Origin: a virus
Lineage: Duplodnaviria > Caudoviricetes
Strand: one strand, 5' to 3'
Length of the DNA stretch: 64,000 nucleotides
Virus record (IMG/VR): IMGVR_UViG_3300037851_000284
Coordinates: 96,001-160,000 of that record
The translations under genes were made by a program, and so were the position numbers. Position 1 is the stretch's first letter, and every line of letters starts with the position of its first letter. Of the stretch, positions 1 through 18,523 are shown in pieces. Below the pieces are notes generated by a model, which did not search any database, was not told the DNA's origin, and was given only the letters and a program-made list of their open reading frames with translations.

Positions 1-1899
1 GAACAAAAAGATATAAATGATTTAAAATATTTATACGATTGTGACTATATAATAAACTGTGCTGCTGAGACTCATGTTGATAATTCAATAGTCAAAAACG
101 ACGAGTTTTTACACTCAAATATTAATGGAGCACACAACATTCTAGAATTAATCAGAAGTAAAAGCCACTTCAAGATGCCTACTTTAATACACTTTAGTTG
201 TTATGATGAAAAGACAAAAGTATTAACACGTCAGGGATTAAGAGAATACTACCAAGTAAAAGTAGGAGATGAAGTATTAAGCATAAACACAGTTACAAAA
301 AACACGGAATTCAAAAAGATTTTGAAAGTAATAATTCAAGATTATGATGGCGAAATGGTACATTTCAAACATAAATCCGATGATTTAATGGTGACTCCTA
401 ATCATAGGATGTATTTTTTGAAGAATAAAAAAATCCAAATAGGAGAGGCTAAAAGTATATGTGATAAACACGGACAAACATATTTGAGAGGAAACAAAAG
501 TGGAAAAGAGTCAGACATTAATATAGAAGGATTAGGATTATTACCATCAAAAGAAGTATTTTATCTATCTGGAATATTTATTGGAGATGGTTTTCTTGCT
601 AATCAAGTAAAATTAACAAGAAACAAAAGTGGATTGAAAAGAGAAGATTACCTATCTAAATGTAGAAGTAATTTAGGACAATTCAAGAAACTGTCGCATA
701 TTGGAGATAATGAATATAGCAAGTCTGAGTGCTACAGGATATATTTTGATGTACCAGAAAAAGATAAAGCAAGAAAAAAATTGGAAAAAACATTAAATGT
801 ATTAAAAATAAACTGGTATCCTGAAAAAAATAGCTCAGAAGAACATATTTATTTTTCATCTAAAGAATGGAGCAATTATTTTTCGCAGTTTGGACAATAT
901 GCAGAAAATAAAACAATTCCTGATTGGATGTTCGATTATGACCATTCAATTTTAAGGGAGCTTTATAATGGTATTATAGATAGTGATGGATATAGAAATA
1001 ATTCTGGTACAGGAATTTTAACAACAACATCTTACAGTTTAGTCCAAAAATGCTGTATTCTTGGTTACTCTCTTAATTTTTATATGAAGTTTTCATCTTA
1101 CAAACAACCGAATAATCTACCACAATTTAAAGATGGAAGAGAAATAAAATCTAGAAAAAAGTCGTATCAAGTATTTTTTAACACGCAAAATATAGGATGT
1201 GGAAATGAAAAATATCATATAGATAACTACAAGGGAAAAATTTGGTGTTTAACCGTTGAGGATAATAAAAATCTAATAGTAGAGAGAAACGGATTATTGA
1301 AAATTTCAGGAAACACAGATGAAGTATACGGAGATTCTTCTGGAACACATACTGAGAAAAGTGTTCTCAATCCGAGCAACCCATATTCTTCTACTAAAGC
1401 TGCAGCAGATATGCTAATATTAGCATGGGCTCGAACCTATAAAATTCCTTACGTGATAGTAAGACCTTCTAATAACTATGGCATCGGTCAGTATGTAGAG
1501 AAACTAATACCCAAGGCATGTAAGTTCTTATCATTAGGAAGAAAGATTCCTCTACATGATGGAGGAACGCCTATGAGAACTTGGTTACATGCTAGCGATA
1601 CAGCAGAAGCAATACTAACCATCATAGAAAAAGGACGCGCAAACGAAATATTTAATATAGCAGGAGACTACGAGGATTCTAATTTAAATATAATAACCAA
1701 AATACTAAGAGTATATTATGATAGTAAGAACATAAACATATTAAATTACATAGACTTAAACTACAGAAGATTAGGTCATGATATAAGATACCAAATAGAC
1801 GACAGTAAATTAAGAAAATTAGGTTGGAAACCAAAAACAGATTTTGATAAAGTACTTCCAAATATAATTAGTTACTATAAGGAGAACTTCATATGGTAA
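1..1899 (+). CDS. rmlB: dTDP-glucose 4,6-dehydratase (RmlB/RfbB family), intein-containing, 5' end outside window
   Basis: Frame 1 is open from base 1 (EQKDIND...INCAAETHVDNSI...NINGAHNILE). After removing the intein it reads HFS-TDEVYG, and has YSSTKAAAD (YxxxK), RPSNNYGIGQYVEKLIP, RTWLHASD and GHDIRY, all RmlB hallmarks. Confidence 0.92.
   Translation, partial: EQKDINDLKYLYDCDYIINCAAETHVDNSIVKNDEFLHSNINGAHNILELIRSKSHFKMPTLIHFSCYDEKTKVLTRQGLREYYQVKVGDEVLSINTVTKNTEFKKILKVIIQDYDGEMVHFKHKSDDLMVTPNHRMYFLKNKKIQIGEAKSICDKHGQTYLRGNKSGKESDINIEGLGLLPSKEVFYLSGIFIGDGFLANQVKLTRNKSGLKREDYLSKCRSNLGQFKKLSHIGDNEYSKSECYRIYFDVPEKDKARKKLEKTLNVLKINWYPEKNSSEEHIYFSSKEWSNYFSQFGQYAENKTIPDWMFDYDHSILRELYNGIIDSDGYRNNSGTGILTTTSYSLVQKCCILGYSLNFYMKFSSYKQPNNLPQFKDGREIKSRKKSYQVFFNTQNIGCGNEKYHIDNYKGKIWCLTVEDNKNLIVERNGLLKISGNTDEVYGDSSGTHTEKSVLNPSNPYSSTKAAADMLILAWARTYKIPYVIVRPSNNYGIGQYVEKLIPKACKFLSLGRKIPLHDGGTPMRTWLHASDTAEAILTIIEKGRANEIFNIAGDYEDSNLNIITKILRVYYDSKNINILNYIDLNYRRLGHDIRYQIDDSKLRKLGWKPKTDFDKVLPNIISYYKENFIW
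199..1314 (+). mobile_element. Class 1 intein (372 aa) with LAGLIDADG homing endonuclease in rmlB
   Basis: Starts CYDEKT (Cys1); block B VTPNHRM; LAGLIDADG-like blocks YLSGIFIGDG and YNGIIDSDG; block F IWCLTVEDNKNLIV; ends ISGN, with Thr as the +1 extein residue. Confidence 0.93.
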
Positions 1900-3005
1900 A
1901 AAGATGTCATCTATGTGGAGAAAAGCTATTAAAAAACCCGATAATAACTCTAGAAGGTATACCTCAAGCAGCACAGTTTTTCTTGAATAATACAAACGAT
2001 AGAGACAAACCGATCAATCTAGTAATAAAACAATGTTCTTCTTGTGGGTTAGTACAGCATACTAATAAACCAGTAAAGTATTACAAAGAAGTTATTACTG
2101 CTTCTAACGTATCAGATACAACAAGAGAAATAAGACAAAAAACACTTAGTAAGATAATAGATACCTATTGCTTAAAAGGAAAGAAAGTATTCGAAATAGG
2201 ATGTGGAAAGGGGAATAACCTTGATATATTAAATGATTTATATATGCGTCCTTATGGTATAGAATTTTCGAACCAAAACAAATATAACATTTTTAAAAAT
2301 TATATATTAGATAAAACAATAAAAGGACCGAAAGATTTCATAGTATCATTTAATTATCTAGAGCATTTACCAAATATAGATAAAGTAATTAAAAAGATTT
2401 ACGATATACTTTCTAACGACGGATTAATTTATGCCACAGTACCAAATTTAGGATACCTTTTAGATACGAAATCCTACTACGAATTCGTTCCTGATCATAT
2501 TTCTTATTTTACTAAAGATACTTTAAGCTTTGCCTTTCATAAGAACGGATTTGATGTCTTAATTAATAACATAATAAACGATAAAAACGATATAGAGATA
2601 TTAGCTAGAAAAAGAAGTAAAATAATAATAGATAATGAAGAGACCAAATCTATTATACGTGAACTAAAATCAATAACAAGTAAATATAATAGAGTTGCTA
2701 TATTCGGAGCTGGTCATAGAACACTTACCCTACTATCACTATTAAAAGATACTAATAATATAAAATATATAGTTGATTCTTGTCAGTTCAAGCAATTCAA
2801 GTATTCATCTATAACGCACTTAAGAATACTACCAGAGGAAAGCTTAATAAGAAATCCAGTAGATTTACTATTAATTATGGTTCCAGGAATATTTCCAAAG
2901 GATGTAGTAGAGAAGATTAAAAAACTAAGATTATCCTGCGATATAGGCACTTTAAAGGATAATAAAATACTTATAGAAAAGATAAATAATGACACTAACA
3001 GATAG
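1893..3005 (+). CDS. NDP-sugar C-methyltransferase family protein (Zn-binding, class I SAM and C-terminal domains), divergent paralog
   Basis: N-terminal CHLCG...CSSCGLVQ Zn motif, VFEIGCGKG SAM motif, NYLEHLP, VPDHISYFT, C-terminal IFGAGHRTLTLL...IVDS...KQFK. Confidence 0.8.
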   Translation: MVKRCHLCGEKLLKNPIITLEGIPQAAQFFLNNTNDRDKPINLVIKQCSSCGLVQHTNKPVKYYKEVITASNVSDTTREIRQKTLSKIIDTYCLKGKKVFEIGCGKGNNLDILNDLYMRPYGIEFSNQNKYNIFKNYILDKTIKGPKDFIVSFNYLEHLPNIDKVIKKIYDILSNDGLIYATVPNLGYLLDTKSYYEFVPDHISYFTKDTLSFAFHKNGFDVLINNIINDKNDIEILARKRSKIIIDNEETKSIIRELKSITSKYNRVAIFGAGHRTLTLLSLLKDTNNIKYIVDSCQFKQFKYSSITHLRILPEESLIRNPVDLLLIMVPGIFPKDVVEKIKKLRLSCDIGTLKDNKILIEKINNDTNR

Positions 3006-4032
3006 AGAAGCAAGAATAAGAACCAGTCTTCAGGAGCGTAAACCAAGAGCGTTTGAAAAGATACAGAACTTTCCTGAAAAGATAAAAAACCATGAGTCTA
3101 TAGCATTGTTACAATTACAATACAAATATGCTTGTAATTTTAAATGTAAACACTGTGCTATAGAAAAGTTCAAACAAGCAGGAGGTAAGACGCTTACTCT
3201 AGATGAAGTCAAAAGCATAGCGGACCAGTCTGATAAAATTGGATTGGCAAGTATCTGTATATCCGGAGGAGAACCTTTAATATTTAAAGACTTAAAAGAA
3301 GTAGTGGATAATATAGGGCCTAGCAGGTTTAATATCAGTCTAGATACTAATGGGTGGTTTCTATCAAAAGAAAAGATAAAATGGTTAGTCGATATAGGAG
3401 TAGATAGAATACACCTAAGTATAGACGGTTTGGAACAGAACCACTCTATGTTCAGAGGAGAGAAAGATTCTTGGAAAAAATGTATACAAGCATTAGACTG
3501 GTGTAAGTTATACGGTTTAGGAGTTATTATAAATATAGTTATAACTAAAGACTTAATAAAATCTGGAGAACTAATAAACCAACTTGAATATATAAAACAA
3601 TTTAATCAGCACGCAAGCATGATATACGCCAAGCCTACTGGCTCATTTGAAGAACATAAAGACCAAGTTCTAGATACTAAAGATATAGAATACGTGCAGT
3701 CTTTAACATCTAAATACAATTGTTCTACCCATTTATCTCCTAATTGCGGTCATGAGTTTGGGTGCCTTTGTTTTAAAAGACACTTCTCTATAACAGCCTA
3801 TGGAGATGTTCTAGCATGTCCTTGGATTCCAATTTCGTTCGGTAATATTAGAGAAGAATCCTTACAAGATATTATAAATAGAGGACTTAAAATGAAATGG
3901 TTCTCTTATGATAACAAATACAGCTGTCAAAGTGGTAATACTGATACGTTTTTCTACCAGAAAATTCTTTCACAAGTTAATGATAATAAACAATATCCAG
4001 TTAGTTGGAAAGATATAAATTGGTATGATTGA
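2989..4032 (+). CDS. Radical SAM enzyme with C-terminal twitch/SPASM-like domain
   Basis: CNFKCKHC (CxxxCxxC), ISGGEP, DTNG; C-terminal CLCFKRHFSITAYGDVLACPW...FGNI. Confidence 0.88.
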   Translation: MTLTDREARIRTSLQERKPRAFEKIQNFPEKIKNHESIALLQLQYKYACNFKCKHCAIEKFKQAGGKTLTLDEVKSIADQSDKIGLASICISGGEPLIFKDLKEVVDNIGPSRFNISLDTNGWFLSKEKIKWLVDIGVDRIHLSIDGLEQNHSMFRGEKDSWKKCIQALDWCKLYGLGVIINIVITKDLIKSGELINQLEYIKQFNQHASMIYAKPTGSFEEHKDQVLDTKDIEYVQSLTSKYNCSTHLSPNCGHEFGCLCFKRHFSITAYGDVLACPWIPISFGNIREESLQDIINRGLKMKWFSYDNKYSCQSGNTDTFFYQKILSQVNDNKQYPVSWKDINWYD

Positions 4033-5023
4033 TAATGACTTATTTTTTATAAGTAATAGCTTTAATAAAGAACTACTAAGAAACAAAACTTTTCTTATAA
4101 CTGGCGGATACGGAACTTTATTAACGTATCTAGTTTGGGAATTATTATTTCTTAATAAGATGTACAAACTTAATATTAAGATAATATTACTATGTAATAA
4201 TGTACATAAAGCAGAAACTAGATATTGGCAATACAGGGGAGACGAATCATTAATATATATACTTGATAATTTAATGACTCCTATTAATATAACAGACAAT
4301 ATAGACTATATAATCCATGGAGCAGGTTATGCTAGTTCTAAGGCATTTATAAATAATCCTATAGAAACCATAACTCCCAACACCATTGGAACTTATAACC
4401 TACTTGAACTTGCAAGAAAGAAACAAGTTAAAACTTTCATGTATGTTAGTAGCGCTGCTGTATATGGACGCCCAGATAAAGAAATAGTAGACGAGAATTA
4501 CATGGGAAGAAACGATTTCACGGTAGTAGAAAACTGTTATCCTACGTCAAAACAAATGGGTGAAAATTTATGTCTAAGTTTTAACAGGACATATAATATT
4601 CCTATTAAAATAATAAGACCTTCTCACAATTATGGGATAACTTTAGACCTTAAGACTGATGATAGGTTGATGGCTAGATTTTTTGATTCTATAATACACA
4701 ATAAAGTATTTGAAATATCAGGAAGAGGAAGAGCAAAAAGGTCTATTATATACATAGCTGATACTATGGCCGCCATATTTCTAATATTAATTAAAGGCCA
4801 AGATAATATATATAATATATCAGATACTACTAATTATATTAATATAAATCAACTAATAAAAAGATCAAAACAGAAAATTACAACCAAATTTGTTAATGAT
4901 AAAGAGAAGCATAATAACTTCTTAGCATATCCAAGAAACTTATTTAAATTAGGTTGGTCTTGTAAATATAATCTAACTCATACTATAGACTTTGTTCGTA
5001 GAGAATTATCATGCTTCACTTAA
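4025..5023 (+). CDS. NAD-dependent epimerase/dehydratase (extended SDR), UDP-glucuronate decarboxylase-like
   Basis: ITGGYGTL Rossmann motif, IIHGAGYAS, NTIGTYNLLE, SSAAVYG, CYPTSKQMGE (YxxxK), IRPSHNYG. Exact reaction unresolved. Confidence 0.78.
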   Translation: MIDNDLFFISNSFNKELLRNKTFLITGGYGTLLTYLVWELLFLNKMYKLNIKIILLCNNVHKAETRYWQYRGDESLIYILDNLMTPINITDNIDYIIHGAGYASSKAFINNPIETITPNTIGTYNLLELARKKQVKTFMYVSSAAVYGRPDKEIVDENYMGRNDFTVVENCYPTSKQMGENLCLSFNRTYNIPIKIIRPSHNYGITLDLKTDDRLMARFFDSIIHNKVFEISGRGRAKRSIIYIADTMAAIFLILIKGQDNIYNISDTTNYININQLIKRSKQKITTKFVNDKEKHNNFLAYPRNLFKLGWSCKYNLTHTIDFVRRELSCFT

Positions 5024-5688
5024 TGACATATTTTAATAAAGAATTCTTAGGTATAGCACAAGAGTTTTTACTACCGAGCATACCTAAAGAATTCAATACA
5101 ATAGATATAACCTATACGACTCTAGAGGATGTATCCAATCTAAACAAAAAGGGAATGATAACGCGCCTAGAGGCTGGTAGAGATAAGATATTAGCTTATC
5201 GAAACAAATATCTAATGTTTGTTGATGCGGACGTAATTTTCTATAAGAATTTCAGCTCTGAAAAGGCAATAAGCTTATTGAAAAATCACGACTTATTATT
5301 TCAGTTAAATGGCGAATGGCCTTATAATACGGGAATCTGGTTAGCAAGGTGTACAGAAGATGTTTATTGGTTTTTTAATAGATGGATAGACGAAATTAGA
5401 AAACAAGATACTGTAAACATCTTTAATTCAGACCAAGCGTTCTTAAATAAAATGTTAAAAGAGCAAAAAGCGATCAGACACACACATCTTCCAGTACAAT
5501 ATAGCGCAAGTCATATGGATAACATATACTTAAGCTATCAAACTATAGGACAGCCTAGGCCTAGTACTAAAGAATTTGGGATGTATAAGTACATACCACA
5601 AGATACTATTCTATTTCATGCTACAGGAGCATACAGCATAGAAGAGAAAAAACACGTTTTAACTTGGGCAAGGGAGCAATTAAAATGA
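5011..5688 (+). CDS. Nucleotide-diphospho-sugar transferase (GT-A fold, GT77-like); start may be 5023
   Basis: MFVDADVIF (DxD), YNTGIW, SDQAFLN. ATG at 5023 overlaps the upstream TAA. Confidence 0.72.
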   Translation: MLHLMTYFNKEFLGIAQEFLLPSIPKEFNTIDITYTTLEDVSNLNKKGMITRLEAGRDKILAYRNKYLMFVDADVIFYKNFSSEKAISLLKNHDLLFQLNGEWPYNTGIWLARCTEDVYWFFNRWIDEIRKQDTVNIFNSDQAFLNKMLKEQKAIRHTHLPVQYSASHMDNIYLSYQTIGQPRPSTKEFGMYKYIPQDTILFHATGAYSIEEKKHVLTWAREQLK

Positions 5689-6536: not shown

Positions 6537-6537
6537 T

Positions 6538-11121: not shown

Positions 11122-11122
11122 A

Positions 11123-11770: not shown

Positions 11771-13005
11771 TGAAATTAACAAGCGACCCTAGGTGGAGTC
11801 CTAGCTGTAGAAATTGCAACAATCATCCATTAGTTCCTATTTTAGATTTAGGTATGCAAGGATGGTGTAATGATTTTATTACAAATGAACAAATTGGAAA
11901 AGAACCTACCTATAGCTTAAAATTAAACTACTGTAAGGAATGCGATATGTTACAATTGACAACTACAGTTCCAAAAGAAAGGATGTTTAAGCATCACGAT
12001 TATCTATCTGGAACAACAAAAACTCTAAGAGAGCATTTTTATAATATAGCCAAGGAGAATATAGACCAATTTAAATTATCAGGTAAGGACATAGTTCTGG
12101 ATATAGGTGGTAATGATGGAACTCAGTTGGCCCAATATAAAATACTCGGATTGAGTAATTTAATAAACGTAGAATCAGCAGATAACATAGCAAAACTTTC
12201 CAGTGCCGCAGGAATATATACTATAAATGATTTTTTTAATGATAAGTTAGCATACAATAACTTTAATCCAGGAGAAATACAGTTAATAAATGCAGCAGGA
12301 GTATTCTTCCATCTCGAAGAACTACACAGTGTTATAAGAGCTATAAAATATTTACTGGCTAGGAATGGGATATTCGTAGTACAATTTATGTATGCTGGTA
12401 TGATGATTGAAAAAGGCACTTACGACATGATTTATCACGAACATTTATTATATTATACACTACACAGTCTAGAAAATCTATTAAACCCATACGGTTTAAA
12501 GGTTTTCGACGCTTATGAATCAGATATACATAGTGGTAGTGTAATAGCAAAACTTTGTCACTCTAGCGCAAATATGGAACCAACAAAAAGATATTTAAAT
12601 TTAAAAGAAAAGGATAAAGAATATACTTTTGAAAAGTTCAAGAAGTTTGGACAAAAGATTGTTTCTGATAGATATAGATTAAGAAAATTTATAAAGGATT
12701 TAAAGGGAGAATCTAAAAAGATTTATGGGTATGGTGCTCCAGCTAAAGGAAATACTTTACTAACATATGAAAAAATTGATAATAAGCTATTAGATAAGTT
12801 AGTAGAGATAAATCCGCTGAAAATAGGAAAATATACTCCGGTAACACATATCCCAATAGTTCAGGAATCTAAAGAGGATTTACCAGATTATTATCTATTA
12901 TTAGCACATAATTTCGATAAAGAGATATTAGAAAAGAATAAAGAAATAACAGATAAAGGAGTAAAATTCATAGTTCCCTTCCCAACTCCAAGGATAATAC
13001 CATGA
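11770..13005 (+). CDS. NDP-hexose C3-methyltransferase (TcaB9/TylCIII/NovU family)
   Basis: CRNC...CKECDMLQL Zn site, YLSGTT, VLDIGGNDG, YDMIYHEH, IHSGS, GYGAPAKGNTLL, K.GKYTP.THIPI, LLAHNF: the full canonical motif set. Confidence 0.92.
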   Translation: MKLTSDPRWSPSCRNCNNHPLVPILDLGMQGWCNDFITNEQIGKEPTYSLKLNYCKECDMLQLTTTVPKERMFKHHDYLSGTTKTLREHFYNIAKENIDQFKLSGKDIVLDIGGNDGTQLAQYKILGLSNLINVESADNIAKLSSAAGIYTINDFFNDKLAYNNFNPGEIQLINAAGVFFHLEELHSVIRAIKYLLARNGIFVVQFMYAGMMIEKGTYDMIYHEHLLYYTLHSLENLLNPYGLKVFDAYESDIHSGSVIAKLCHSSANMEPTKRYLNLKEKDKEYTFEKFKKFGQKIVSDRYRLRKFIKDLKGESKKIYGYGAPAKGNTLLTYEKIDNKLLDKLVEINPLKIGKYTPVTHIPIVQESKEDLPDYYLLLAHNFDKEILEKNKEITDKGVKFIVPFPTPRIIP

Positions 13006-13943
13006 GAAAAATATTAATAACAGGAGCCCTAGGTTTTATAGGATCAGTATTGGTAAAAAAGTTATTATTAGACGGTTACAATTCTATTACTGTTCTAGAT
13101 AATATTAAATATAGGCAGATCGGACCCATATATGATTACGACGACCCAGATATTACTTTTGTATACGGAGATGTAAGAGACACTAAACTATTAAAAACTC
13201 TTGTTACACATAATGATGTAATAATACCATTAGCAGCAATAGTAGGAGCTCCTGCTTGCGATATGTTTCCCGATGAGGCCACGGATGTTAACCATATACA
13301 AATAAAAAATATAGCAGAGTGGTTATCTAGAGAACAAATGTTAATTTATCCTAATAGTAATAGCGCTTATGGTACATCAAAGATTACAGTAACAGAAGAC
13401 AGTCCAAGAAGACCACTTAGTCATTATGCTAAAACTAAGTGTTTTGCTGAAGATGAAGTATTACATGGAGGAAATGGTGTAGTTTTAAGATTAGCTACAG
13501 TATTTGGACTTTCTCCTAGAATGCGCATGGATTTGTTAGTTAACGATTTCACCTATAAGGCTTATACTGATGGGTATTTAGTTTTGTTTGAATCAAGCTT
13601 CAAAAGAAATTATATACATATACAAGATGTGGCTAACACATTTATATTTATGATGGATAATTATAAGAAATGTAATAATAAAGCATTCAATGTTGGTTTA
13701 TCTAATGCTAATTTATCCAAACTTGAGTTAGCACAGGTTATTAAGAAATATCTACCAGAATTGGTAATAAAAGATGAAGAGTTTAAGAAAGACGTAGATA
13801 AGAGAAATTATATAGTATCTAATGAGCGTCTGGAATCCATGGGTTGGAAACCAACCAAGACTGTAGACGATGGTATTCAAGAACTACTTAAAGTTTGTCC
13901 AATTATAAAGGCCCATAACGATAGAAACTTTACCAATTTATAA
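13002..13943 (+). CDS. NAD-dependent epimerase/dehydratase (extended SDR)
   Basis: ILITGALGFIGS, PLAAIVGAPAC, YAKTK (YxxxK), LRLATVFGLSPRMRMDLLVNDF, RNYIHIQD. Confidence 0.88.
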   Translation: MRKILITGALGFIGSVLVKKLLLDGYNSITVLDNIKYRQIGPIYDYDDPDITFVYGDVRDTKLLKTLVTHNDVIIPLAAIVGAPACDMFPDEATDVNHIQIKNIAEWLSREQMLIYPNSNSAYGTSKITVTEDSPRRPLSHYAKTKCFAEDEVLHGGNGVVLRLATVFGLSPRMRMDLLVNDFTYKAYTDGYLVLFESSFKRNYIHIQDVANTFIFMMDNYKKCNNKAFNVGLSNANLSKLELAQVIKKYLPELVIKDEEFKKDVDKRNYIVSNERLESMGWKPTKTVDDGIQELLKVCPIIKAHNDRNFTNL

Positions 13944-14076
13944 GGAAACTAAATAAATTCTAATATAAAACATCCAATATGTTTTGGTGAACTTAAATAT
14001 ATAAAAAATAATACTTATATGCGCACAGTATATAATTTATTGAATAATCAGGAATTAAAAATGTAAGGATAGAAGA

Positions 14077-14991
14077 ATGAACGCTATAATTACAGGGTTT
14101 ACAGGATATCTAGGAAAACATTTAACAAAATTCTTAAAGAACTTAGGATGGAATCTTACTGGAATATGTTCTCAGTATCCAAGCTTGTTTTGTCCTGCTA
14201 GTGAGATAAACGATTGTATTAAAGAAGATACTCCTGATGGGTCTGTTGATTATATATTTCACCTTGCAGCGGTAGCTAAAGCTGGAAATTGGCATGAGTA
14301 TCATAAAGGAGACGTTTGGACACAAAACCAAAAGATTAATACCAATATTCTAGATTACTGGCTTAAATATCAACCTCAAGCCAAACTAATAGCTATGGGT
14401 ACTTCGTGTAGTTACGACTCTTCTTTGTCACTAACAGAAGATAACTATCTTAATGGAAAACCAGAAGACAGTTTAGCTTCCTATGCTTATACAAAACGCA
14501 TGCTTCTAGTTGGATTACAATCAATTTCTTCCCAATATGGATTAAAATATAATTATCTAATACCTTCAACTATTTATGGACCTAACTTTGTTAAAAACGA
14601 CAGTCATTTTATATTTGATTTAATTAAAAAGATATATGCTGGGTCTAAAGGAGATACAGTAGAGCTATGGGGAAACGGGGAACAAAAAAGAGAGCTAATT
14701 TATATAGATGATGTTGTTAAAACTATATATAATACTTTAAATCTAGACAATGAAATACTAAATATAGGTTATGGTAAAGAATATAGTATAAAATCTTATG
14801 CTAAATTTATATGTAATTATTTAAAATATGATTTTAATAATATTCACTTTAATGAAAAGAAGTTTGTTGGTGTGAAATCAAAATTATTAGATATTACACG
14901 CATACAATACTTTGTTCCAGATTACATATCGTCGCTAATTGGACTATCTGACGGATTACAAAAAACTATAGACTATTATAGGAGTACATAA
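14077..14991 (+). CDS. GDP-L-fucose synthase-like NDP-4-keto-sugar epimerase/reductase
   Basis: ITGFTGYLG, FHLAA, GTSCSY, YAYTKRM, PSTIYGP, LWGNGEQKRELIYIDD. Confidence 0.78.
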   Translation: MNAIITGFTGYLGKHLTKFLKNLGWNLTGICSQYPSLFCPASEINDCIKEDTPDGSVDYIFHLAAVAKAGNWHEYHKGDVWTQNQKINTNILDYWLKYQPQAKLIAMGTSCSYDSSLSLTEDNYLNGKPEDSLASYAYTKRMLLVGLQSISSQYGLKYNYLIPSTIYGPNFVKNDSHFIFDLIKKIYAGSKGDTVELWGNGEQKRELIYIDDVVKTIYNTLNLDNEILNIGYGKEYSIKSYAKFICNYLKYDFNNIHFNEKKFVGVKSKLLDITRIQYFVPDYISSLIGLSDGLQKTIDYYRST

Positions 14992-15515
14992 TGAAAACAG
15001 AAGTGGTTGGAAAAATTAATTTTGAAAGAACGGATAACACTAGGGATTTAACTGAACTAGCTGAACTAATAGAAAAAGAGGTTGGAGAAAGAAAAGCAAC
15101 AATATCACCAGAGCGCAGATATCTACCAACATTAGCAGAACTTATAGATAGATTAAGCATATTACAACTAAAAGAAGTATTCATACCAGAACATAAAGAA
15201 GAATATGCTAAAGAAATTAAAGATATTATGCACGATATAGACATAATATTAAATGAAGGACAGATAATTTTAGATGCTAAAACGATCAGAGCAATTATAG
15301 TATTAAGCCAGATGAATTTACATATTTGGTTTAATGAAAGTGAAGCCAGAAAAGGAAATAAAGAAGGAAATAAACTAGAACTAACCCACGGTTTGAACGG
15401 GATTAGAAACACATCTAAAAATATAATACAAGATATTTTAACTGGAGAAAATAGAAAAGATTATAAAATAGATTGTCTAGCTGCCGAATTTAAAACATGG
15501 GAGATTAGTTGGTAA
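14991..15515 (+). CDS. Hypothetical helical protein (TLAELIDRLSILQLK motif; DUF6165/DUF4254-like)
   Basis: Coupled to both neighbours by TAATG overlaps. The motif resembles small proteins seen near glycosyltransferase clusters; family call tentative. Confidence 0.45.
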   Translation: MKTEVVGKINFERTDNTRDLTELAELIEKEVGERKATISPERRYLPTLAELIDRLSILQLKEVFIPEHKEEYAKEIKDIMHDIDIILNEGQIILDAKTIRAIIVLSQMNLHIWFNESEARKGNKEGNKLELTHGLNGIRNTSKNIIQDILTGENRKDYKIDCLAAEFKTWEISW

Positions 15516-16084
15516 TGCGAAAAAATTATGCTGGACAAATAATAAATGGAGTAGAACCATTAGAATTCATAGAAATAAGTAACCACTCCAGTAAATGGAA
15601 ATGTAAATGTGTATGTGGAAATATTTTTAATGCTTGGATAAATGGACTTCAAAAAGGAATTAAATGTGGATGTAAAAGTGGATGTAAAAAACGCTTAACT
15701 GGAAAGAAATCTCCTTCTTGGAAAGGAATAGGAGATTTACCAGCAAGTTTTATAGCAAATATAAAATCACAAGCGAAATTTAGAAATATAGAATGGAATT
15801 TGGATATAGAATATTTATGGAAATTATTTTTAGAACAGAATAAAAAATGTAAATATTCTGGATTAGAATTAAATTTCACAGAAAAATATTCAGAAGCGAT
15901 CCATAATAAAGGAACAGCCTCATTAGATAGAATAGATTCCGATAAAGGATACATTATTGGAAATGTTCAATGGATTCATAAAGATATAAACTTTATGAAA
16001 CAAGAATATAGTCACAAAAGATTTATAAATTATTGCGATTTAATATCAAATTATAGCGGCTCTAATAGGAAAGATGATGTGTAG
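15515..16084 (+). mobile_element. Free-standing HNH-type homing endonuclease gene
   Basis: WKCKCVCGN...CGC N-terminal Zn motif, CKYSG, SLDRIDSDKGYIIGNVQWIHKDINFMK. ATG 15515 overlaps the upstream TAA. Confidence 0.8.
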
Positions 16085-16101
16085 GAAACTATTCTAATTA
16101 T

Positions 16102-17097
16102 ATGTTACTAATAGCTCTAGGAACACGCCCTGAGTGGATTAAGATACAACCACTAATTCCCCTTCTAAAAAAAGAAGGAATACCATATAAATTGCTACAT
16201 ATTGAACAACATCAAGATCTTGTGAATATTTCGGAAGAACATGATACTCTGCCATTATATGACATATCGTCTGACCGTCTTACTAACATTCATTTAAACG
16301 TGCTAGAACAGGCTGAGAACTGGCTTAAAGGAGTAAAGGCAGTCTTGGTACAGGGAGATACTAGCAGCGCTTATAGCATGGCATTGGCCGCCTTTATAAG
16401 AAAGGTACCAATAGTACATCTAGAAGCTGGTTTAAGGACATATAACATGGAAAATCCTTATCCGGAAGAATATAATAGAAGAGCTATCAGTTTAATGGCT
16501 AAGGTACACTTATGTCCAACTAACCAAAATGCTCAAAATCTTGTAAAAGAGGGAGTAAGGGCATCAAAATATGTAGTAGGAAATACAGTTCTAGACACTA
16601 TAGATTCTACTCCTTTAAATGAATCAAATTTAGTTCTGGTAACTATGCATCGTAGAGAAAATTGGCCAATTATTAATGATTGGTTTACGGCCATTAAAAA
16701 ATTAGCTAAACAGACTAGTTCATTAACCTATTTAATAGTAATGCATCCGGCAATAAAATATCCATCTGATTTTAGTAGTTCTAATATATCACTCATAACT
16801 CCACTTAGCAGAGAAGATACTATTAATTATATAAAAAAGAGCAAAATGATTATTACAGATAGCGGAGGTATACAAGAGGAGGCTTGTTATCTACATAAAA
16901 AGGTTATTATTTGTAGAAAAGTAACCGAAAGACCAGAGAGTATATGGCTTAATGCTACATTATGTAAAACTCCAGATTATTTATGTAGAGCCTTTTGGAA
17001 AATGTTAAATAAAAGACTAACTGATTACCAGTGTCCTTATGGTGATGGGCACGCAAGAGAAAAAATAATAGAAATACTTAAAAAGGAGATAGTATGA
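16102..17097 (+). CDS. wecB: UDP-N-acetylglucosamine 2-epimerase (non-hydrolysing)
   Basis: GTRPEWIK, VQGDT, HLEAGLRT, PYPEEYNR, VGNT..D, TMHRREN, TDSGGIQEEA, TERPE, PYGDG. Confidence 0.95.
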   Translation: MLLIALGTRPEWIKIQPLIPLLKKEGIPYKLLHIEQHQDLVNISEEHDTLPLYDISSDRLTNIHLNVLEQAENWLKGVKAVLVQGDTSSAYSMALAAFIRKVPIVHLEAGLRTYNMENPYPEEYNRRAISLMAKVHLCPTNQNAQNLVKEGVRASKYVVGNTVLDTIDSTPLNESNLVLVTMHRRENWPIINDWFTAIKKLAKQTSSLTYLIVMHPAIKYPSDFSSSNISLITPLSREDTINYIKKSKMIITDSGGIQEEACYLHKKVIICRKVTERPESIWLNATLCKTPDYLCRAFWKMLNKRLTDYQCPYGDGHAREKIIEILKKEIV

Positions 17098-17366
17098 ATT
17101 TTAAATTAAGACACGATAGACTATTACTTACACCCATAGAAAAGACCAAAACTGAAGGAGGAATATTACTTCCTGATAATAACAATGACCCATGGATGTA
17201 TGGACTAGTTGAAGCGGTTGGGCCTAAAATAGAAGACATTAATATAGGAGATGTAGTATGCTTCTATAAGTGTGATGCTAATCGTATAGAAGTAGAAGGA
17301 AGAAGTTATATTCATTTGAGAGATGGACACATAGTTGGAATACAACTATCACCAAAGGAAGAATAA
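17094..17366 (+). CDS. groES: Co-chaperonin GroES/Cpn10
   Basis: DRLLL...KTEGGILLP mobile loop, GLVEAVGP, IGDVV, EGRSY...IVGI. Confidence 0.9.
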   Translation: MNFKLRHDRLLLTPIEKTKTEGGILLPDNNNDPWMYGLVEAVGPKIEDINIGDVVCFYKCDANRIEVEGRSYIHLRDGHIVGIQLSPKEE

Positions 17367-18523
17367 TGATTAATATATATTCACCAATTAATATATTGGG
17401 TTACGGGATTCATTCCTGTAATATGATTAAAGCTCTTATTGAAAATGGACAGGAAATTAACCTAACTCCAATAGGAGATATACAACTAGACCATTTCTTT
17501 GAAATGTATATAAAGGATGCAGAAAAGAATAAAGATAGATATTCTGCTAAAGAACCATCATTATTTTTATTTCATGATGAATTTAGCAATCAAGCTGCTG
17601 GAAATCCGTTATTTACGTTCTCTATATTTGAAACTTCTCAAATAAAAACCCGTTCGTTTAATATGTTAGAAAACGGACCAACGGATGTTATATTAACGAC
17701 TACGTCAGGACATCTAGAATATCTGGTTAATCAAAAAATAACAAAACCCATTGAAGTAGTAAATGAAGGAGTAGACGAAACTCTTTATAATACGATACCA
17801 ATAGATAAATATCTAGACACTAAAAAGTTTACCTATATCACTATGGGTAAAAAAGAGGAAAGAAAGAACACAGACCTATTATTAAGATTATTCATTTTTA
17901 ATATGAAGGAAAAAGATGTAGCATTAATATGTCATACGTTTAATCCGTTCATAAATAAAACTAAAGACCACCCATTTAAAAACCTAGCTTGTTGGTCGGG
18001 AGTTAATCCGCTTAAACACGGGTTTGAATATAAAGGATTTAATGGTAAGGCGCATTTATTTATATATAAAAATTGTGAAATTTATTTTACAGTACCTACT
18101 ATTCATATATCAAACATGCCTTCTTTATTACATTCAGCCAATGTAGGTATACAAGTATCTAGAGGTGAAGGATGGGACCTTCCAGCAACAGAACTGATGG
18201 CCTGCGGTATTCCAATAATAGCAACAAACTGTCTAGGTCATAAAGAGTATATAAATGACAACTGTCCGGATATTCAGAAGGAATTAATAATTAAGAAAGA
18301 AACCTCTACTATAGCTCATGATGGTATGTGGTTTAATGGCGACCAAGGAATTTGGGATAATCTTAATACATTAAAATTAGAAGAATTACTAACATATACC
18401 TTTGATAATCAATCAAAATATGCTAACAAAAGCGATGAATTGGCTGATTATATGTCAAAAAAGTATTCTTGGAATAACGCCGCTCAAAAATTAATAGAAG
18501 TAATAAAGAAATATAGAGGCTAA
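17366..18523 (+). CDS. GT4-family (GT-B) glycosyltransferase
   Basis: LGYG N-terminus, NEGVDETLY, GKKEERKN, SRGEGWDLPATELMACGIPIIATN (Ex7E motif). Confidence 0.88.
   Translation: MINIYSPINILGYGIHSCNMIKALIENGQEINLTPIGDIQLDHFFEMYIKDAEKNKDRYSAKEPSLFLFHDEFSNQAAGNPLFTFSIFETSQIKTRSFNMLENGPTDVILTTTSGHLEYLVNQKITKPIEVVNEGVDETLYNTIPIDKYLDTKKFTYITMGKKEERKNTDLLLRLFIFNMKEKDVALICHTFNPFINKTKDHPFKNLACWSGVNPLKHGFEYKGFNGKAHLFIYKNCEIYFTVPTIHISNMPSLLHSANVGIQVSRGEGWDLPATELMACGIPIIATNCLGHKEYINDNCPDIQKELIIKKETSTIAHDGMWFNGDQGIWDNLNTLKLEELLTYTFDNQSKYANKSDELADYMSKKYSWNNAAQKLIEVIKKYRG

What the first reader, a model, noticed from the sequence alone, without database searches (positions are those of the whole stretch)
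1..18523. Complete phage-borne pathway for a heavily methylated glycan, with no export or polymerase genes
Seen: about 17 coupled genes covering sugar activation and remodelling (RmlB, WecB, three other SDRs), five methyltransferase types (two C-MT paralogs, FkbM, class I, B12-radical SAM), a twitch radical SAM and about five transferase-like proteins. No Wzx/Wzy/ABC exporter, priming phospho-transferase or membrane protein is visible. Known: a C3-methyltransferase plus a 4-ketoreductase after a 4,6-dehydratase makes branched 3-C-methyl deoxysugars (mycarose/noviose/virenose type), and some phages and giant viruses glycosylate their virions. Inference: a cytoplasmic system that decorates phage proteins (or DNA) rather than host LPS.
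Basis: partly seen in the sequence, partly recalled or inferred. Interest (0 to 1): 0.8.

Follow-up and report, generated by a model that had tools for sequence, protein, structure and literature searches.

The report
Modular phage sugar-building gene block
A 219-kb uncultured freshwater phage devotes about 30 kb (some 35 genes) to making rare methylated, branched deoxy-sugars and joining them into a glycan with no export machinery; related phages keep a common core but swap tailoring cassettes, which points to a strain-specific sugar coat, most likely on the virus particle, though the target is unproven.

Summary
The gene block is real and larger than reported. It spans 29,952 bp, from 11.4 kb upstream of the window to window position 18523, on a 219-kb phage genome.

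Confirmed:
- an RmlB 4,6-dehydratase, split by an intein
- three further SDRs
- WecB
- a TylC3/TcaB9-type sugar 3-C-methyltransferase plus a divergent paralog
- FkbM and class-I methyltransferases
- a B12-radical SAM enzyme, also split by an intein
- a SPASM radical SAM enzyme
- 7-10 glycosyltransferase-like proteins

The upstream part adds an Fe-S (E1-type) RfbH, an acetolactate-synthase-like ThDP enzyme, an HpcH-like aldolase, a GNAT and a mini-DegT.

Not confirmed: the words "complete" and "sugar activation". The genome has no nucleotidyltransferase, RmlC or E3 reductase, so it must draw on host NDP-sugar pools.

No priming transferase, Wzx or multi-pass membrane protein is found in this genome. 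None of 169 proteins in six syntenic relatives has three or more hydrophobic segments.

New here: those six relatives share a conserved core but swap cassettes. One cassette is a 7-gene yersiniose-like deoxygenation/branching set. Four glycan genes in the lineage host inteins.

The acceptor is unproven. My estimates are virion proteins about 0.45, host envelope about 0.27 and DNA about 0.05. Analogous unexplained blocks exist in cultured cyanophages, and giant viruses offer a proven parallel. I rate this a new variant of a known kind.

The parts
1..1899 (+). dTDP-glucose-4,6-dehydratase-type SDR (RmlB), 685 aa; the gene starts 158 nt before the window. Part of accessory cassette A.
   Evidence: TIGR01181 264.7 bits in two stretches. 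S-TDE-VYG and YxxxK motifs after splicing. An intein-free 313-aa allele at 68% identity occurs in L011/L015.
199..1314 (+). 372-aa LAGLIDADG-type intein inserted at HFS|TDE of RmlB
   Evidence: Boundaries set by alignment with the intein-free L011 allele. Pfam Intein_splicing.
1893..3005 (+). Divergent sugar C-methyltransferase paralog, 370 aa (cassette A)
   Evidence: Methyltransf_23, partial Methyltransf_13 and Methyltransf_14. Paralog of C3-MT411 (phmmer 3e-8). 50% identity in L011/L015 only.
2989..4032 (+). Radical SAM enzyme with a SPASM/twitch domain, 347 aa (cassette A)
   Evidence: PF04055 1e-22 and PF13186 1e-8. Below every NCBIfam equivalog cut-off. PDB sequence hits to MoaA and SkfB only.
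4025..5023 (+). SDR 332 aa, reductase/epimerase type (cassette A)
   Evidence: Epimerase 1.8e-33. YxxxK present, no TDE.
5011..5688 (+). GT-A type Nucleotid_trans (PF03407) glycosyltransferase, 225 aa; divergent copies in relatives
   Evidence: PF03407 2.4e-8. DADV motif invariant. 24-33% identity in relatives.
5664..6536 (+). Unassigned 290-aa protein of a mostly viral family, with a GT-A-like DxD motif (lead only); this genome only within the lineage set
   Evidence: No Pfam or PHROG hit. Atlas: nearest clusters are mostly viral, with a weak GT2 lead. Invariant D72/D74. hhalign to GT2 is weak.
6526..8697 (+). B12-binding radical SAM enzyme (putative C-methyltransferase), 723 aa including an intein
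   Evidence: PF02310 + PF04055. Best NCBIfam hits HpnJ/PhpK/BchE, all below cut-off. Absent from 5 of 6 relatives; L012 has a different B12-rSAM.
7168..8007 (+). 280-aa HNH/NUMOD3 intein splitting the CxxxCxxC cluster motif (GCPYS|CKFC)
   Evidence: Pfam Intein_splicing, HNH_3 and NUMOD3. Junctions read directly from the sequence.
8697..9452 (+). Core GT-A-fold glycosyltransferase, 251 aa, of a family whose nearest Atlas clusters are all viral
   Evidence: AlphaFold model pLDDT 85.6. Foldseek matches SpsA, GnT-I, POMGnT1, glycogenin and mimivirus R699. 41-70% identity in all six relatives. Atlas neighbours are all viral.
9449..10387 (+). Core GT1-like protein, 312 aa (weak assignment)
   Evidence: PF13524, 22.5 bits, below cut-off. 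35-67% identity in all six relatives. No PDB sequence hit.
10378..11121 (+). FkbM-type methyltransferase, 247 aa (accessory)
   Evidence: Atlas features 0.97 and structure TM 0.82 to PF05050 clusters. Present in own genome and L012 (48%), and distantly in L013 (29%).
11123..11770 (+). Class-I SAM methyltransferase, 215 aa (accessory)
   Evidence: Methyltransf_23 7e-9. Only a 28% relative, in L016.
11770..13005 (+). Core NDP-sugar 3-C-methyltransferase (TylC3/TcaB9/KijD1 type), 411 aa
   Evidence: Methyltransf_13 and Methyltransf_14. Full-length PDB matches 4RV9 (2.6e-59), 3NDI and 5T64. 58-72% identity in all six relatives.
13002..13943 (+). Core SDR 313 aa (reductase/epimerase)
   Evidence: YxxxK without TDE; 49-69% identity in all six relatives.
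14077..14991 (+). Core SDR 304 aa, GDP-fucose-synthase-like (epimerase/4-reductase type)
   Evidence: NF047922, 102 bits, below cut-off. 44-64% identity in all six relatives.
14991..15515 (+). Core small helical protein of unknown function; the conserved part starts near residue 40
   Evidence: 59-80% identity in six relatives, 60 invariant columns. Only a weak DUF4254 hit.
15509..16084 (+). Free-standing HNH homing endonuclease; a mobile insert, not a glycan gene
   Evidence: phrog_3322 1.3e-24. Absent from all relatives. A contig in an independent metagenome joins 15491 to 16068.
16102..17097 (+). Core WecB, non-hydrolysing UDP-GlcNAc 2-epimerase
   Evidence: TIGR00236, 236.1 bits, above cut-off 210. 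42-71% identity in all six relatives.
17094..17366 (+). Cpn10/GroES-like co-chaperonin, syntenic with the block but not a glycan enzyme
   Evidence: PF00166 6e-14. Same position in L011-L015.
17366..18523 (+). Core GT4-family GT-B glycosyltransferase, 385 aa, last gene of the block
   Evidence: PF00534, PF13692, PF20706. 60-72% identity in the four relatives that reach it. The L011 allele carries a 368-aa intein at the conserved EGWDLP site.

Best explanation
The block is a modular, cytoplasmic glycan factory carried by a large, probably lytic, contractile-tailed phage.

Inputs. It makes no activated sugars itself. It takes host NDP-hexoses (dTDP- or CDP-glucose and UDP-GlcNAc) and tailors them.

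Conserved core. WecB makes UDP-ManNAc. A TylC3-type C3-methyltransferase with two reductase/epimerase SDRs makes a 3-C-methyl branched deoxysugar. A mini-DegT with a GNAT probably makes an N-acetylated amino sugar.

Accessory cassette A. RmlB makes the 4-keto-6-deoxy sugar. The Fe-S E1-type RfbH removes the 3-OH, using a host reductase. An acetolactate-synthase-like ThDP enzyme, with an HpcH-like partner, adds a carbon branch as in yersiniose. A second C-methyltransferase, a SPASM radical SAM enzyme and an SDR finish the sugar.

Further cassettes. A B12-radical SAM enzyme, FkbM and a class-I methyltransferase add extra C- and O-methyl groups.

Assembly. Seven to ten soluble glycosyltransferases (GT-A, GT-B and possibly GT-D) then assemble an oligosaccharide.

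Target. No lipid-priming, flipping or polymerising enzyme is found in this genome, and no multi-pass membrane protein is predicted in the six relatives. The sugar cassettes vary between relatives with no cognate exporter varying alongside them. The most likely acceptor is therefore a phage protein inside the cell, probably on the virion surface. That would give each strain its own glycan coat.

Status of the steps. Shown: the gene content, the enzyme families and motifs, the absence of export genes, and the core/cassette architecture. Inferred: the order of steps, the sugar identities and the acceptor.
For: Phage identity and extent.

Enzyme assignments:
- RfbH above the NCBIfam cut-off (458.6 > 423). 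It has the E1 His motif SFYPAHH and the Cys-rich segment aligned to 3BCX.
- C3-methyltransferase full-length to 4RV9/TcaB9/KijD1.
- WecB above cut-off.
- TDE motif only in RmlB.
- ThDP enzyme with all three TPP domains but far below acetolactate-synthase cut-offs (355.8 against 738).
- FkbM.
- unk251 has a GT-A fold.
- GT-B 494 is a GT4-type GT-B whose top structural match is a chlorovirus glycosyltransferase (E 3.9e-22; Z 34.1).
- The mini-DegT keeps the PLP-Lys motif.

Host dependence: no NTP_transferase, RmlC, NAD_binding_1 or Fer2 in the genome.

No export route:
- No Bac_transf, WecA-type transferase or Wzx.
- No multi-pass membrane protein in the block.
- 0 of 169 proteins in six relatives has three or more hydrophobic segments, whereas a Bdellovibrio O-antigen locus gives five.

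Long residence and modularity:
- The core is conserved at 41-80% identity in six syntenic phage contigs, while the cassettes come and go.
- GC content matches the rest of the genome.

Links to virions and precedents:
- Conserved synteny WecB-Cpn10-GT4-x-ClpP abutting the virion module.
- No integrase.
- Wzx flippases prefer their cognate O unit (abstract of PMC6436433). Cassette swapping without a cognate wzx therefore argues against export.
- Precedents: Megavirinae clade-specific clusters of 6-33 genes for fibril glycans (PMC10117803); mycobacteriophage capsid and tail-tube glycans, as cited in PMC12619734.
Against: - No computation here shows a glycosylated phage protein.
- Core families have clear homologs in bacterial surface-polysaccharide loci that do contain Wzx and Wzy: unk258 at 48%, WecB at 36%, GT2 at 27% and a unk251-like domain at 28%. 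Host machinery could in principle take over a phage-built unit.
- GT-B 494's similarity to the chlorovirus enzyme is statistically tied with BshA, MshA and HepE (Z 32-33). Its beta-insertion did not align with the insertion of the protein O-glycosyltransferases SdgB and GtfA.
- E1-type RfbH normally works on CDP-sugars with a dedicated E3 reductase, whereas the dehydratase here is dTDP-type (264.7 against 50.7 bits). The cassette A chemistry is therefore a model, not a demonstration.
- Four families (unk290, unk295, unk332, GT1-like312) have only motif-level or below-cut-off support as transferases.
- The timing of expression is unknown.
Confidence: 0.45

Rival explanations
1. Host envelope remodelling. 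The phage supplies unusual NDP-sugars and peripheral glycosyltransferases that act on the host's own undecaprenyl-linked intermediates. Host priming transferase, flippase, polymerase and ligase then export the altered glycan. This changes the LPS, capsule or S-layer glycan of the infected cell, for example to block superinfection or to stop progeny sticking to debris.
For: - Homologs of core proteins sit inside bacterial O-antigen/LPS loci with Wzy, Wzx, NTP-transferases and GT9.
- WecB and UDP-ManNAc are typical of envelope polymers.
- This is the usual reading of the analogous 'cell-wall synthesis and modification' genes of cyanomyoviruses (PMC12801897; RN05-S block).
- The phage already depends on the host for NDP-sugars and reductants.
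Against: - No membrane component is found in this genome, and no multi-pass membrane protein is predicted in the six relatives.
- The cassettes differ between close relatives with no cognate flippase or polymerase, although Wzx enzymes prefer their cognate unit (PMC6436433 abstract).
- No integrase, so no lysogenic conversion.
- The core is conserved about as well as neighbouring essential-looking genes such as ClpP. That fits an integral phage function better than a moron.
- The unk251, unk290 and FkbM families have mainly viral neighbours.
Confidence: 0.27
2. A soluble or non-virion target. The glycan or single sugars are attached to a small molecule (a glycoside-type secondary metabolite) or to host proteins such as pilin or flagellin. 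Alternatively, the sugars act as free NDP-sugar analogues that perturb host metabolism.
For: - The enzyme repertoire (B12-rSAM, SPASM rSAM, C-methyltransferases, DegT, GNAT, ThDP enzyme) is that of actinomycete natural-product sugar tailoring.
- GT4 enzymes closest in fold include small-molecule glycosyltransferases (BshA, MshA).
Against: - No aglycone-forming genes (PKS, NRPS, cyclitol synthase) appear in the block or in relatives.
- Seven to ten transferases imply an oligosaccharide rather than a mono- or di-glycoside.
- Every viral precedent found in the literature searches has a macromolecular target: virion proteins, host surface glycans or DNA.
Confidence: 0.1
3. DNA hypermodification. 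The sugars are transferred to modified bases of the phage genome to evade restriction, as in T4-like and other phages.
For: - Phage-encoded glycosyltransferases commonly glycosylate DNA (Pyle et al. 2024, as cited in PMC12619734).
- The terminal GT4 matches PF20706 'GT4 in conflict systems'.
- The block follows replication genes on the same strand.
Against: - No ThyA-type pyrimidine hydroxymethylase in the genome, so there is no obvious hydroxyl acceptor base.
- Known DNA glycans use one to three common sugars, not a roughly 35-gene tailoring system.
- The TET/JBP search found nothing, but its control also failed, so this is not excluded.
Confidence: 0.05
4. Artefact. The block is a cellular O-antigen or capsule locus misassembled into, or binned with, a phage contig.
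For: The gene families are those of bacterial polysaccharide loci.
Against: - The same block lies between primase-helicase and ClpP/virion genes in six independent contigs from different samples.
- One 151,845-bp contig spans it at uniform depth, though that run may be the source of this DNA.
- GC content is uniform with the phage.
- Inteins and an HNH endonuclease typical of phage genes are embedded in it.
Confidence: 0.01

Closest known systems
Megavirinae (mimivirus-group) fibril glycosylation gene clusters (Notaro et al. 2022, PMC10117803)
   Same: Virus-encoded clusters of 6-33 genes combining nucleotide-sugar tailoring enzymes and soluble glycosyltransferases. They make rare bacterial-type sugars, have no membrane export route, and differ between clades of one virus group. 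The structural matches of unk251 include mimivirus R699.
   Different: Those are eukaryote-infecting giant viruses, with glycans proven chemically on virion fibrils. Their sugars are amino sugars and rhamnose, not 3-deoxygenated, ThDP-branched or radical-SAM-modified sugars. Here the target is unproven.
Cyanomyovirus 'LPS / cell-wall synthesis and modification' blocks (P-SSM2, S-SCSM1, S-SCSM2R in PMC12801897; Synechococcus phage RN05-S, S-B05, S-B43)
   Same: Large lytic myoviruses with blocks of 17-24 genes: 4,6-dehydratase, SDRs, an RfbH-like protein (40% identity), FkbM and other methyltransferases, many glycosyltransferases and no exporter. Their function is likewise unresolved.
   Different: The cyanophage block encodes its own cytidylyltransferase and RmlC and is rich in fucosyltransferase families. 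It shares only 5 of about 18 genes at the BLAST level. No C3-methyltransferase, ThDP enzyme, B12 or SPASM radical SAM, or intein is annotated there.
Mycobacteriophage virion O-glycosylation (Freeman et al. 2023, cited in PMC12619734 and PMC12801897)
   Same: The only experimentally shown case of phage-encoded glycosyltransferases decorating capsid and tail-tube proteins inside the cell.
   Different: Those phages carry a few glycosyltransferase genes and use host sugars. They have no sugar-tailoring pathway. I could not read the paper, so the details rest on citing papers.
Yersinia pseudotuberculosis yersiniose A / 3,6-dideoxyhexose pathway (ddhABCD plus ThDP-dependent YerE; PMC5399914 and Chen, Guo & Liu 1998 cited there)
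   Same: A 4,6-dehydratase, an E1-type RfbH/DdhC (335 bits to 3BCX, with the His motif and Cys cluster retained) and an acetolactate-synthase-like ThDP enzyme occur together. They travel as one cassette in three phages. RfbH and a ThDP enzyme also lie near each other in the unrelated viral contig L004.
   Different: No DdhA (activation) and no DdhD (E3 reductase). The dehydratase is dTDP-type, not CDP-type. The cassette adds an HpcH-like protein, a C-methyltransferase and a SPASM radical SAM enzyme. The cellular pathway feeds a Wzx/Wzy O-antigen.
Actinomycete branched deoxysugar pathways (TylC3 for mycarose, TcaB9 for tetronitrose, KijD1 for kijanose)
   Same: C3-MT411 aligns end to end with these enzymes, including the N-terminal Zn-binding and C-terminal domains, and is followed by reductase-type SDRs.
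   Different: Identity is about 30%. No 2,3-dehydratase or 3-ketoreductase is found here. The sugars there end up on polyketide aglycones.
Chlorovirus capsid glycosylation enzymes (NY-2A B736L, PDB 3OY2)
   Same: Top structural match of the first glycosyltransferase of the block (Foldseek E 3.9e-22; VIA Z 34.1, rmsd 2.6 over 371 residues, 21% identity). It is a virus-encoded soluble GT4 enzyme.
   Different: The match is essentially tied with cellular GT4 enzymes. The phage protein has an extra beta-rich insertion of about 55 residues.

Membership tests
Wzx/Wzy-dependent O-antigen or capsule gene cluster | Initiating polyprenyl-phosphate sugar transferase (Bac_transf or WecA-type) | tested here: not met
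   PF02397: no match. PF00953: only a 15.5-bit match with internal stops. Both searched in six frames across the whole genome, with controls positive.
Wzx/Wzy-dependent O-antigen or capsule gene cluster | Wzx flippase and Wzy polymerase (multi-pass membrane proteins) | tested here: not met
   PF01943: no match. No protein with 3 or more hydrophobic segments in the block or in six relatives, whereas a Bdellovibrio locus gives five, including Wzy and Wzx. PF04932 was not searched directly.
Wzx/Wzy-dependent O-antigen or capsule gene cluster | Nucleotide-sugar tailoring genes plus several glycosyltransferases in one co-directional block | tested here: met
3,6-dideoxyhexose pathway (DdhA-D / RfbFGHI) | DdhC/RfbH E1: PMP enzyme with His replacing the Lys, and an Fe-S cysteine cluster | tested here: met
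   NF011936 458.6 bits (cut-off 423). SFYPAHHITMGEGG is identical to wild-type 3BCX, and the CxC...C segment is retained.
3,6-dideoxyhexose pathway (DdhA-D / RfbFGHI) | DdhA glucose-1-phosphate cytidylyltransferase | tested here: not met
   PF00483 and PF12804: no match in the genome.
3,6-dideoxyhexose pathway (DdhA-D / RfbFGHI) | DdhB CDP-glucose 4,6-dehydratase | tested here: inconclusive
   A 4,6-dehydratase is present, but it scores as dTDP-type (264.7 bits) rather than CDP-type (50.7 bits).
3,6-dideoxyhexose pathway (DdhA-D / RfbFGHI) | DdhD/E3 NAD(P)H-dependent Fe-S flavoprotein reductase | tested here: not met
   PF00175 and PF00111: no match in the genome. A host reductase would be needed.
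Yersiniose-type ThDP-branched sugar pathway | Acetolactate-synthase-like ThDP enzyme (YerE-like) linked to the E1 and dehydratase genes | tested here: inconclusive
   All three TPP domains are present and the protein is far below acetolactate-synthase cut-offs. It co-travels with RfbH in own, L011, L015 and L004. No YerE reference sequence was available for comparison.
NDP-sugar 3-C-methyltransferases (TylC3/TcaB9/KijD1) | Three-domain architecture (Zn-binding N-domain, class-I methyltransferase domain, C-terminal Methyltransf_14 domain) with full-length similarity | tested here: met
   PF08421 65.5 bits, PF13489 and PF08484 131.2 bits. 4RV9 aligns over residues 8-411.
NDP-sugar 3-C-methyltransferases (TylC3/TcaB9/KijD1) | C3-methylation of an NDP-4-keto sugar | not testable with these tools
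   Needs an enzyme assay.
Phage DNA glycosylation systems (T4-type and relatives) | Enzyme creating a hydroxylated acceptor base (ThyA-like hydroxymethylase or TET/JBP) | tested here: inconclusive
   PF00303 absent with a positive control. PF12851 absent, but its control did not ring.
Virus-encoded virion glycosylation systems (mycobacteriophage, chlorovirus, Megavirinae) | Soluble virus-encoded glycosyltransferases with no membrane route | tested here: met
Virus-encoded virion glycosylation systems (mycobacteriophage, chlorovirus, Megavirinae) | Glycan chemically present on virion proteins | not testable with these tools
   Needs purified virions.
GT-D (DUF1792-type) glycosyltransferases, for unk258 | Match to the GT-D / GT-D-like profile and a DxE metal motif | tested here: inconclusive
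   An invariant RFSDGE motif is present. Homolog P0033 scores 26.0 bits on PF22882, against a cut-off of 27. The phage protein itself gives no hit, and the profile finds nothing in the PDB.

The most novel reading that the evidence does not exclude
This phage lineage builds strain-specific 'serotypes' of a virion-surface glycan entirely in the cytoplasm. The glycan would be made of C-methylated, ThDP-branched 3,6-dideoxy sugars and radical-SAM-modified sugars that have not been reported for any virus. Relatives would diversify it by swapping tailoring cassettes on a conserved scaffold. That would make it a bacterial-virus counterpart of giant-virus fibril glycosylation, with homing inteins spreading through the glycan genes of co-infecting phages.
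Probability: 0.35. Interest if true: 0.8.

Novelty: new variant of a known kind. Interest (0 to 1): 0.62.

Why it matters
Large sugar-gene blocks in big phages have been annotated for twenty years as "LPS genes", and their target has never been settled. This lineage offers a clean comparative system. It has a conserved core, defined swappable cassettes and no export genes in seven genomes, so competing hypotheses become testable by glycoproteomics of virions against LPS profiling of infected cells.

The chemistry has not been reported in any virus. It combines E1-type 3-deoxygenation without a dedicated reductase, ThDP-dependent branching, two C-methyltransferases, and B12 and SPASM radical SAM enzymes. 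It would be a source of new sugar-tailoring enzymes.

If the glycan coats the virion, it bears on how phages evade host defences or tune adsorption, and on phage antigenicity. The concentration of inteins in four different glycan genes also shows that these genes are widely shared and under strong purifying selection in phage populations.

Tried and rejected
**Searches that found nothing**
- Megablast of the first 20 kb, and tblastn of a virion protein, against GenBank phages: no match.
- Single-protein scans of IMG/VR with GT4-385 and the 390-aa neighbour: no relatives. With primase-helicase: only 23-24% matches.
- PHROGs on ten unassigned proteins: only the HNH endonuclease was identified.
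- PDB sequence searches for unk251 and FkbM247, and profile searches for unk258, unk332, unk295 and GT1-like312: nothing significant.

**Inconclusive tests**
- Profile-profile comparisons of the unassigned families with the GT-A and GT-B families of the block gave probabilities below 8%. Only the acidic motifs aligned.
- I rejected the idea that GT-B 494 is an SdgB/GtfA/TarM-type protein O-glycosyltransferase. TarM aligned over only 344 of its 492 residues, fewer than several GT4 enzymes that lack the insertion.
- TET/JBP search: the control did not ring.

**Expression and regulation**
- Sigma-70 promoter and terminator scans were at or below the shuffled expectation (99 against 114; 9 against 6.8).
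- A k-mer enrichment search of intergenic regions found only the tRNA T-arm. The timing of expression is therefore unknown.
- No RNA holder is listed among public runs.

**Not interpretable**
- In run X2, window 1-4648 had almost no cover while the rest was covered. No contig bridges the gap, so this cannot be read as absence.

**Not done**
- Complex prediction was not used. An enzyme with an unknown substrate protein is the kind of pair the tool says is rarely worth a job, and I claim no specific binding pair.
- Freeman et al. 2023 could not be read.

Full report
**What the window is**

The window is bases 96001-160000 of a single 219,054-bp virus record that CheckV estimates as 95% complete. 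GC content is about 30% throughout, and the finding's region has the same composition as the rest. Downstream of the finding, on the minus strand, lie large virion genes, including a baseplate wedge protein (phrog_6, 7e-27). Upstream lie Rad52 and a primase-helicase. The genome has no tyrosine integrase.

**Checking the observation**

Window 1-18523 holds 19 co-directional ORFs, mostly overlapping at their start and stop codons.
- An RmlB-type 4,6-dehydratase.
- WecB (236 bits, above the 210 cut-off).
- Three more SDRs.
- A sugar C-methyltransferase with both flanking domains. It aligns end to end with the solved 3-C-methyltransferases 4RV9, TcaB9 and KijD1.
- A divergent paralog of that methyltransferase.
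- A class-I methyltransferase.
- A B12-binding radical SAM enzyme.
- A radical SAM enzyme with a SPASM domain.
- An FkbM methyltransferase, which Pfam missed. The Atlas supports it by features (0.97) and by structure (TM 0.82).
- Five transferase-like proteins.

Of the four SDRs, only RmlB has the dehydratase TDE motif. The others keep YxxxK alone and are reductases or epimerases.

**Corrections to the observation**

1. The block starts 11.4 kb upstream of the window and spans 29,952 bp. The upstream part contains:
   - a 494-aa GT-B and a GT2;
   - an acetolactate-synthase-like ThDP enzyme and an HpcH-like protein;
   - three unassigned proteins;
   - a GNAT and a 215-aa mini-DegT that keeps the PLP-lysine motif;
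   - an RfbH above its NCBIfam cut-off (458.6 against 423). This RfbH is the Fe-S E1 type. It keeps the His-containing SFYPAHH motif and the cysteine-rich segment of Yersinia E1.
2. The pathway is neither complete nor self-activating. Six-frame searches of the whole genome, with positive controls, find no sugar-phosphate nucleotidyltransferase, RmlC, E3-type reductase or ferredoxin.
3. Cpn10 and a free-standing HNH endonuclease lie inside the range but are not glycan genes.
4. RmlB and the B12-radical SAM enzyme are interrupted by inteins:
   - The RmlB intein is at window 199-1314, at the catalytic TDE motif.
   - The B12-rSAM intein is at 7168-8007, inside the CxxxCxxC motif.

**No export route**

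- No protein in the block is predicted to be multi-pass, and none in the whole genome has more than four hydrophobic segments.
- Bac_transf, WecA-type and Wzx profiles find nothing credible.
- The same hydrophobicity scan finds five multi-pass proteins, including Wzy and Wzx, in a Bdellovibrio O-antigen locus. It finds none among 169 proteins of six related phage loci.

**Relatives and modularity (the main new result)**

The 251-aa protein at 8697-9452 has homologs at 41-72% identity on long metagenomic contigs. Six of these contigs (L011-L016) share the same architecture: primase-helicase, then the sugar block, then WecB-Cpn10-GT4-small ORF-ClpP, then minus-strand virion genes.

A presence/absence matrix separates two classes of gene.
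- The core is present in five or six of the six relatives, at 32-80% identity. It comprises the mini-DegT, unk258, unk251, GT1-like312, C3-MT411, SDR313, SDR304, a small helical protein (unk174) and WecB.
- GT4-385 is present in all four relatives that reach that position.
- GT2-248, unk295, unk332 and the GNAT are present in most.
- The remaining genes form accessory cassettes.

The accessory cassettes are as follows:
- Cassette A has seven genes: ThDP enzyme, HpcH-like, RfbH, RmlB, the C-methyltransferase paralog, the SPASM radical SAM enzyme and SDR332. It occurs only in this phage and in L011/L015. It is contiguous there but split in two here.
- The B12-radical SAM enzyme and unk290 are unique to this genome. 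L012 has a different B12 enzyme.
- FkbM and the class-I methyltransferase are patchy.
- L013 has in their place another SDR, FkbM, a small radical SAM enzyme and a split transketolase.
- Unrelated genes (ThyX, DNA ligase, a PfkB kinase, endonuclease VII) are inserted at several points in relatives.

Intein content is also variable:
- RmlB is intein-free in L011/L015.
- GT4-385 carries a 368-aa intein in L011 only.
- Close homologs of GT-B 494 carry one or two inteins.
- In an independent metagenome, a contig joins 15491 to 16068, skipping the HNH gene.

**Structure-based annotation**

- unk251 folds with high confidence (pLDDT 85.6) as a GT-A enzyme. Its matches include SpsA, GnT-I, POMGnT1, glycogenin and mimivirus R699.
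- GT-B 494 (pLDDT 89.3) is a GT4-type retaining GT-B. Its best match is the chlorovirus NY-2A glycosyltransferase 3OY2 (Foldseek E 3.9e-22; VIA Z 34.1). By Z-score this is essentially tied with BshA, MshA and HepE. Its beta-rich insertion did not align with that of the protein O-glycosyltransferases SdgB and GtfA.
- unk258 belongs to a large family of more than 200 members, some of them fused to a GNAT. One homolog scores just under the cut-off on Pfam GT-D-like.
- unk290, unk295, unk332 and GT1-like312 have only motif-level or below-cut-off support as transferases.

**Mechanism**

The steps below are inferred from family knowledge.

Core:
- WecB gives UDP-ManNAc.
- C3-MT411 methylates C3 of an NDP-4-keto sugar, and SDR313 and SDR304 reduce or epimerise it.
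- The mini-DegT plus the GNAT give an N-acetylated amino sugar.

Cassette A:
- RmlB forms the 4-keto-6-deoxy sugar.
- RfbH removes the 3-OH using a host reductase. From memory, the E1 homolog SpnQ of the spinosyn pathway also works without a dedicated E3, using general ferredoxin or flavodoxin reductases.
- The ThDP enzyme adds a two-carbon (or longer) branch, as YerE does in yersiniose biosynthesis (PMC5399914 and the paper it cites).
- SDR332 reduces the product.
- The roles of the HpcH-like protein, the second C-methyltransferase and the SPASM enzyme are open.

RfbH and a ThDP enzyme also occur close together in an unrelated viral contig (L004). That supports a functional link between the two.

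**The acceptor**

For a phage (virion) protein:
- There is no membrane machinery in seven genomes.
- Cassettes swap without any cognate flippase, although Wzx enzymes prefer their own O unit (PMC6436433 abstract).
- There is no integrase.
- Core conservation is comparable with that of neighbouring ClpP.
- Synteny with Cpn10 and ClpP, next to the virion module, is conserved.
- unk251, unk290 and FkbM have mainly viral neighbours.
- Precedents exist in mycobacteriophages, chloroviruses and Megavirinae.
I did not test it.

For the host envelope:
- unk258 (48%), WecB (36%), GT2 (27%) and a unk251-like domain (28%) have homologs inside bacterial loci with Wzx, Wzy or LPS-core enzymes.
- This is the usual reading of the analogous cyanophage genes.

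DNA is disfavoured because no ThyA-type hydroxymethylase is present.

I put virion or other phage proteins at about 0.45, host envelope at 0.27, other soluble or host-protein targets at 0.10, DNA at 0.05 and artefact at 0.01. The remaining probability I leave to targets not considered here.

**Comparison with what is known**

- Cultured Synechococcus myoviruses (RN05-S, S-B05, S-B43) carry a block of about 17 kb with a cytidylyltransferase, a dehydratase, RmlC, SDRs, an RfbH-like protein, FkbM and many glycosyltransferases. Only five genes match ours by BLAST.
- A 642-kb huge phage has RfbH (two copies), a fused C-methyltransferase, SDRs and the mini-DegT within about 25 kb.
- Exporter-less sugar blocks in large phages are therefore a known but unexplained kind. 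Giant-virus fibril glycosylation is the closest proven analogue.
- A full-text search found no paper combining phage with C-methyltransferase, radical SAM and deoxysugar, and none linking phage genes to yersiniose.

**Verdict**

- This is a new variant of a known kind. Its new features are the core-plus-cassette architecture across a phage lineage, sugar chemistry unreported in viruses, and an unusual load of inteins in the glycan genes.

Other notes of this scan had already flagged the upstream yersiniose-like genes and both inteins on this same genome.

Noticed in passing
window 17094-17366 and 18817-19401: A Cpn10/GroES-like gene sits between WecB and the last glycosyltransferase, and a ClpP-family protease follows two genes later. 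The order WecB-Cpn10-GT4-small ORF-ClpP is conserved in relatives L011 and L013-L015. L012 shows WecB-Cpn10 before the locus ends. This may link the block to capsid folding and maturation.
   Followed up: partly
window 15509-16084: A free-standing HNH homing endonuclease lies between unk174 and WecB. It is absent from all six relatives, and one contig of an independent freshwater metagenome skips it (join 15491 to 16068).
   Followed up: yes
L011:16883-19144; proteins P0150, P0154: Inteins occur in other glycan genes of the lineage. The GT4-385 ortholog of L011 has a 368-aa LAGLIDADG intein at the conserved EGWDLP site. Close homologs of GT-B 494 carry one or two inteins. With RmlB and the B12-rSAM enzyme, that makes four intein-hosting glycan genes.
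   Followed up: partly
L002:9381-10154 (genome 87381-88154): An RlaP-type (Pol-beta superfamily) nucleotidyltransferase is embedded in the upstream part of the block. It is found only in this genome among the seven, so it is probably an unrelated insertion.
   Followed up: no
L013:8327-9404: Relative L013 has a split transketolase (N and pyrimidine-binding halves) with a small radical SAM enzyme and FkbM at the position where this phage has cassette A. This looks like a different ThDP-dependent branching solution at the same slot. A similar split transketolase lies in the Desulfobacteraceae LPS locus L018.
   Followed up: no
L012:14696-15388 and 17330-18445; L016:14832-15877: Unrelated genes are inserted between core sugar genes in relatives: ThyX and a DNA ligase in L012, a PfkB kinase and an Mpo1-like protein in L016. 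The block therefore has several insertion hot spots.
   Followed up: no
window 14991-15515: unk174 is one of the best conserved proteins of the block, with 60 invariant columns in six phages. It appears helical from its sequence (not tested) and has only a weak DUF4254 hit. The conserved part starts at an internal Met near residue 40, so the annotated start is probably too early.
   Followed up: partly
L007 (LR756502.1 425000-470000): A 642-kb huge phage has its own sugar block with two RfbH paralogs, a C3-methyltransferase fused into an 867-aa protein, and a 196-aa homolog (34%) of the mini-DegT. The mini-DegT is therefore a real family and not a truncated gene.
   Followed up: partly
proteins P0122, P0130, P0139: In some organisms the unk258 family is fused to a GNAT domain. 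In this phage, the GNAT gene is the immediate downstream neighbour of unk258.
   Followed up: partly
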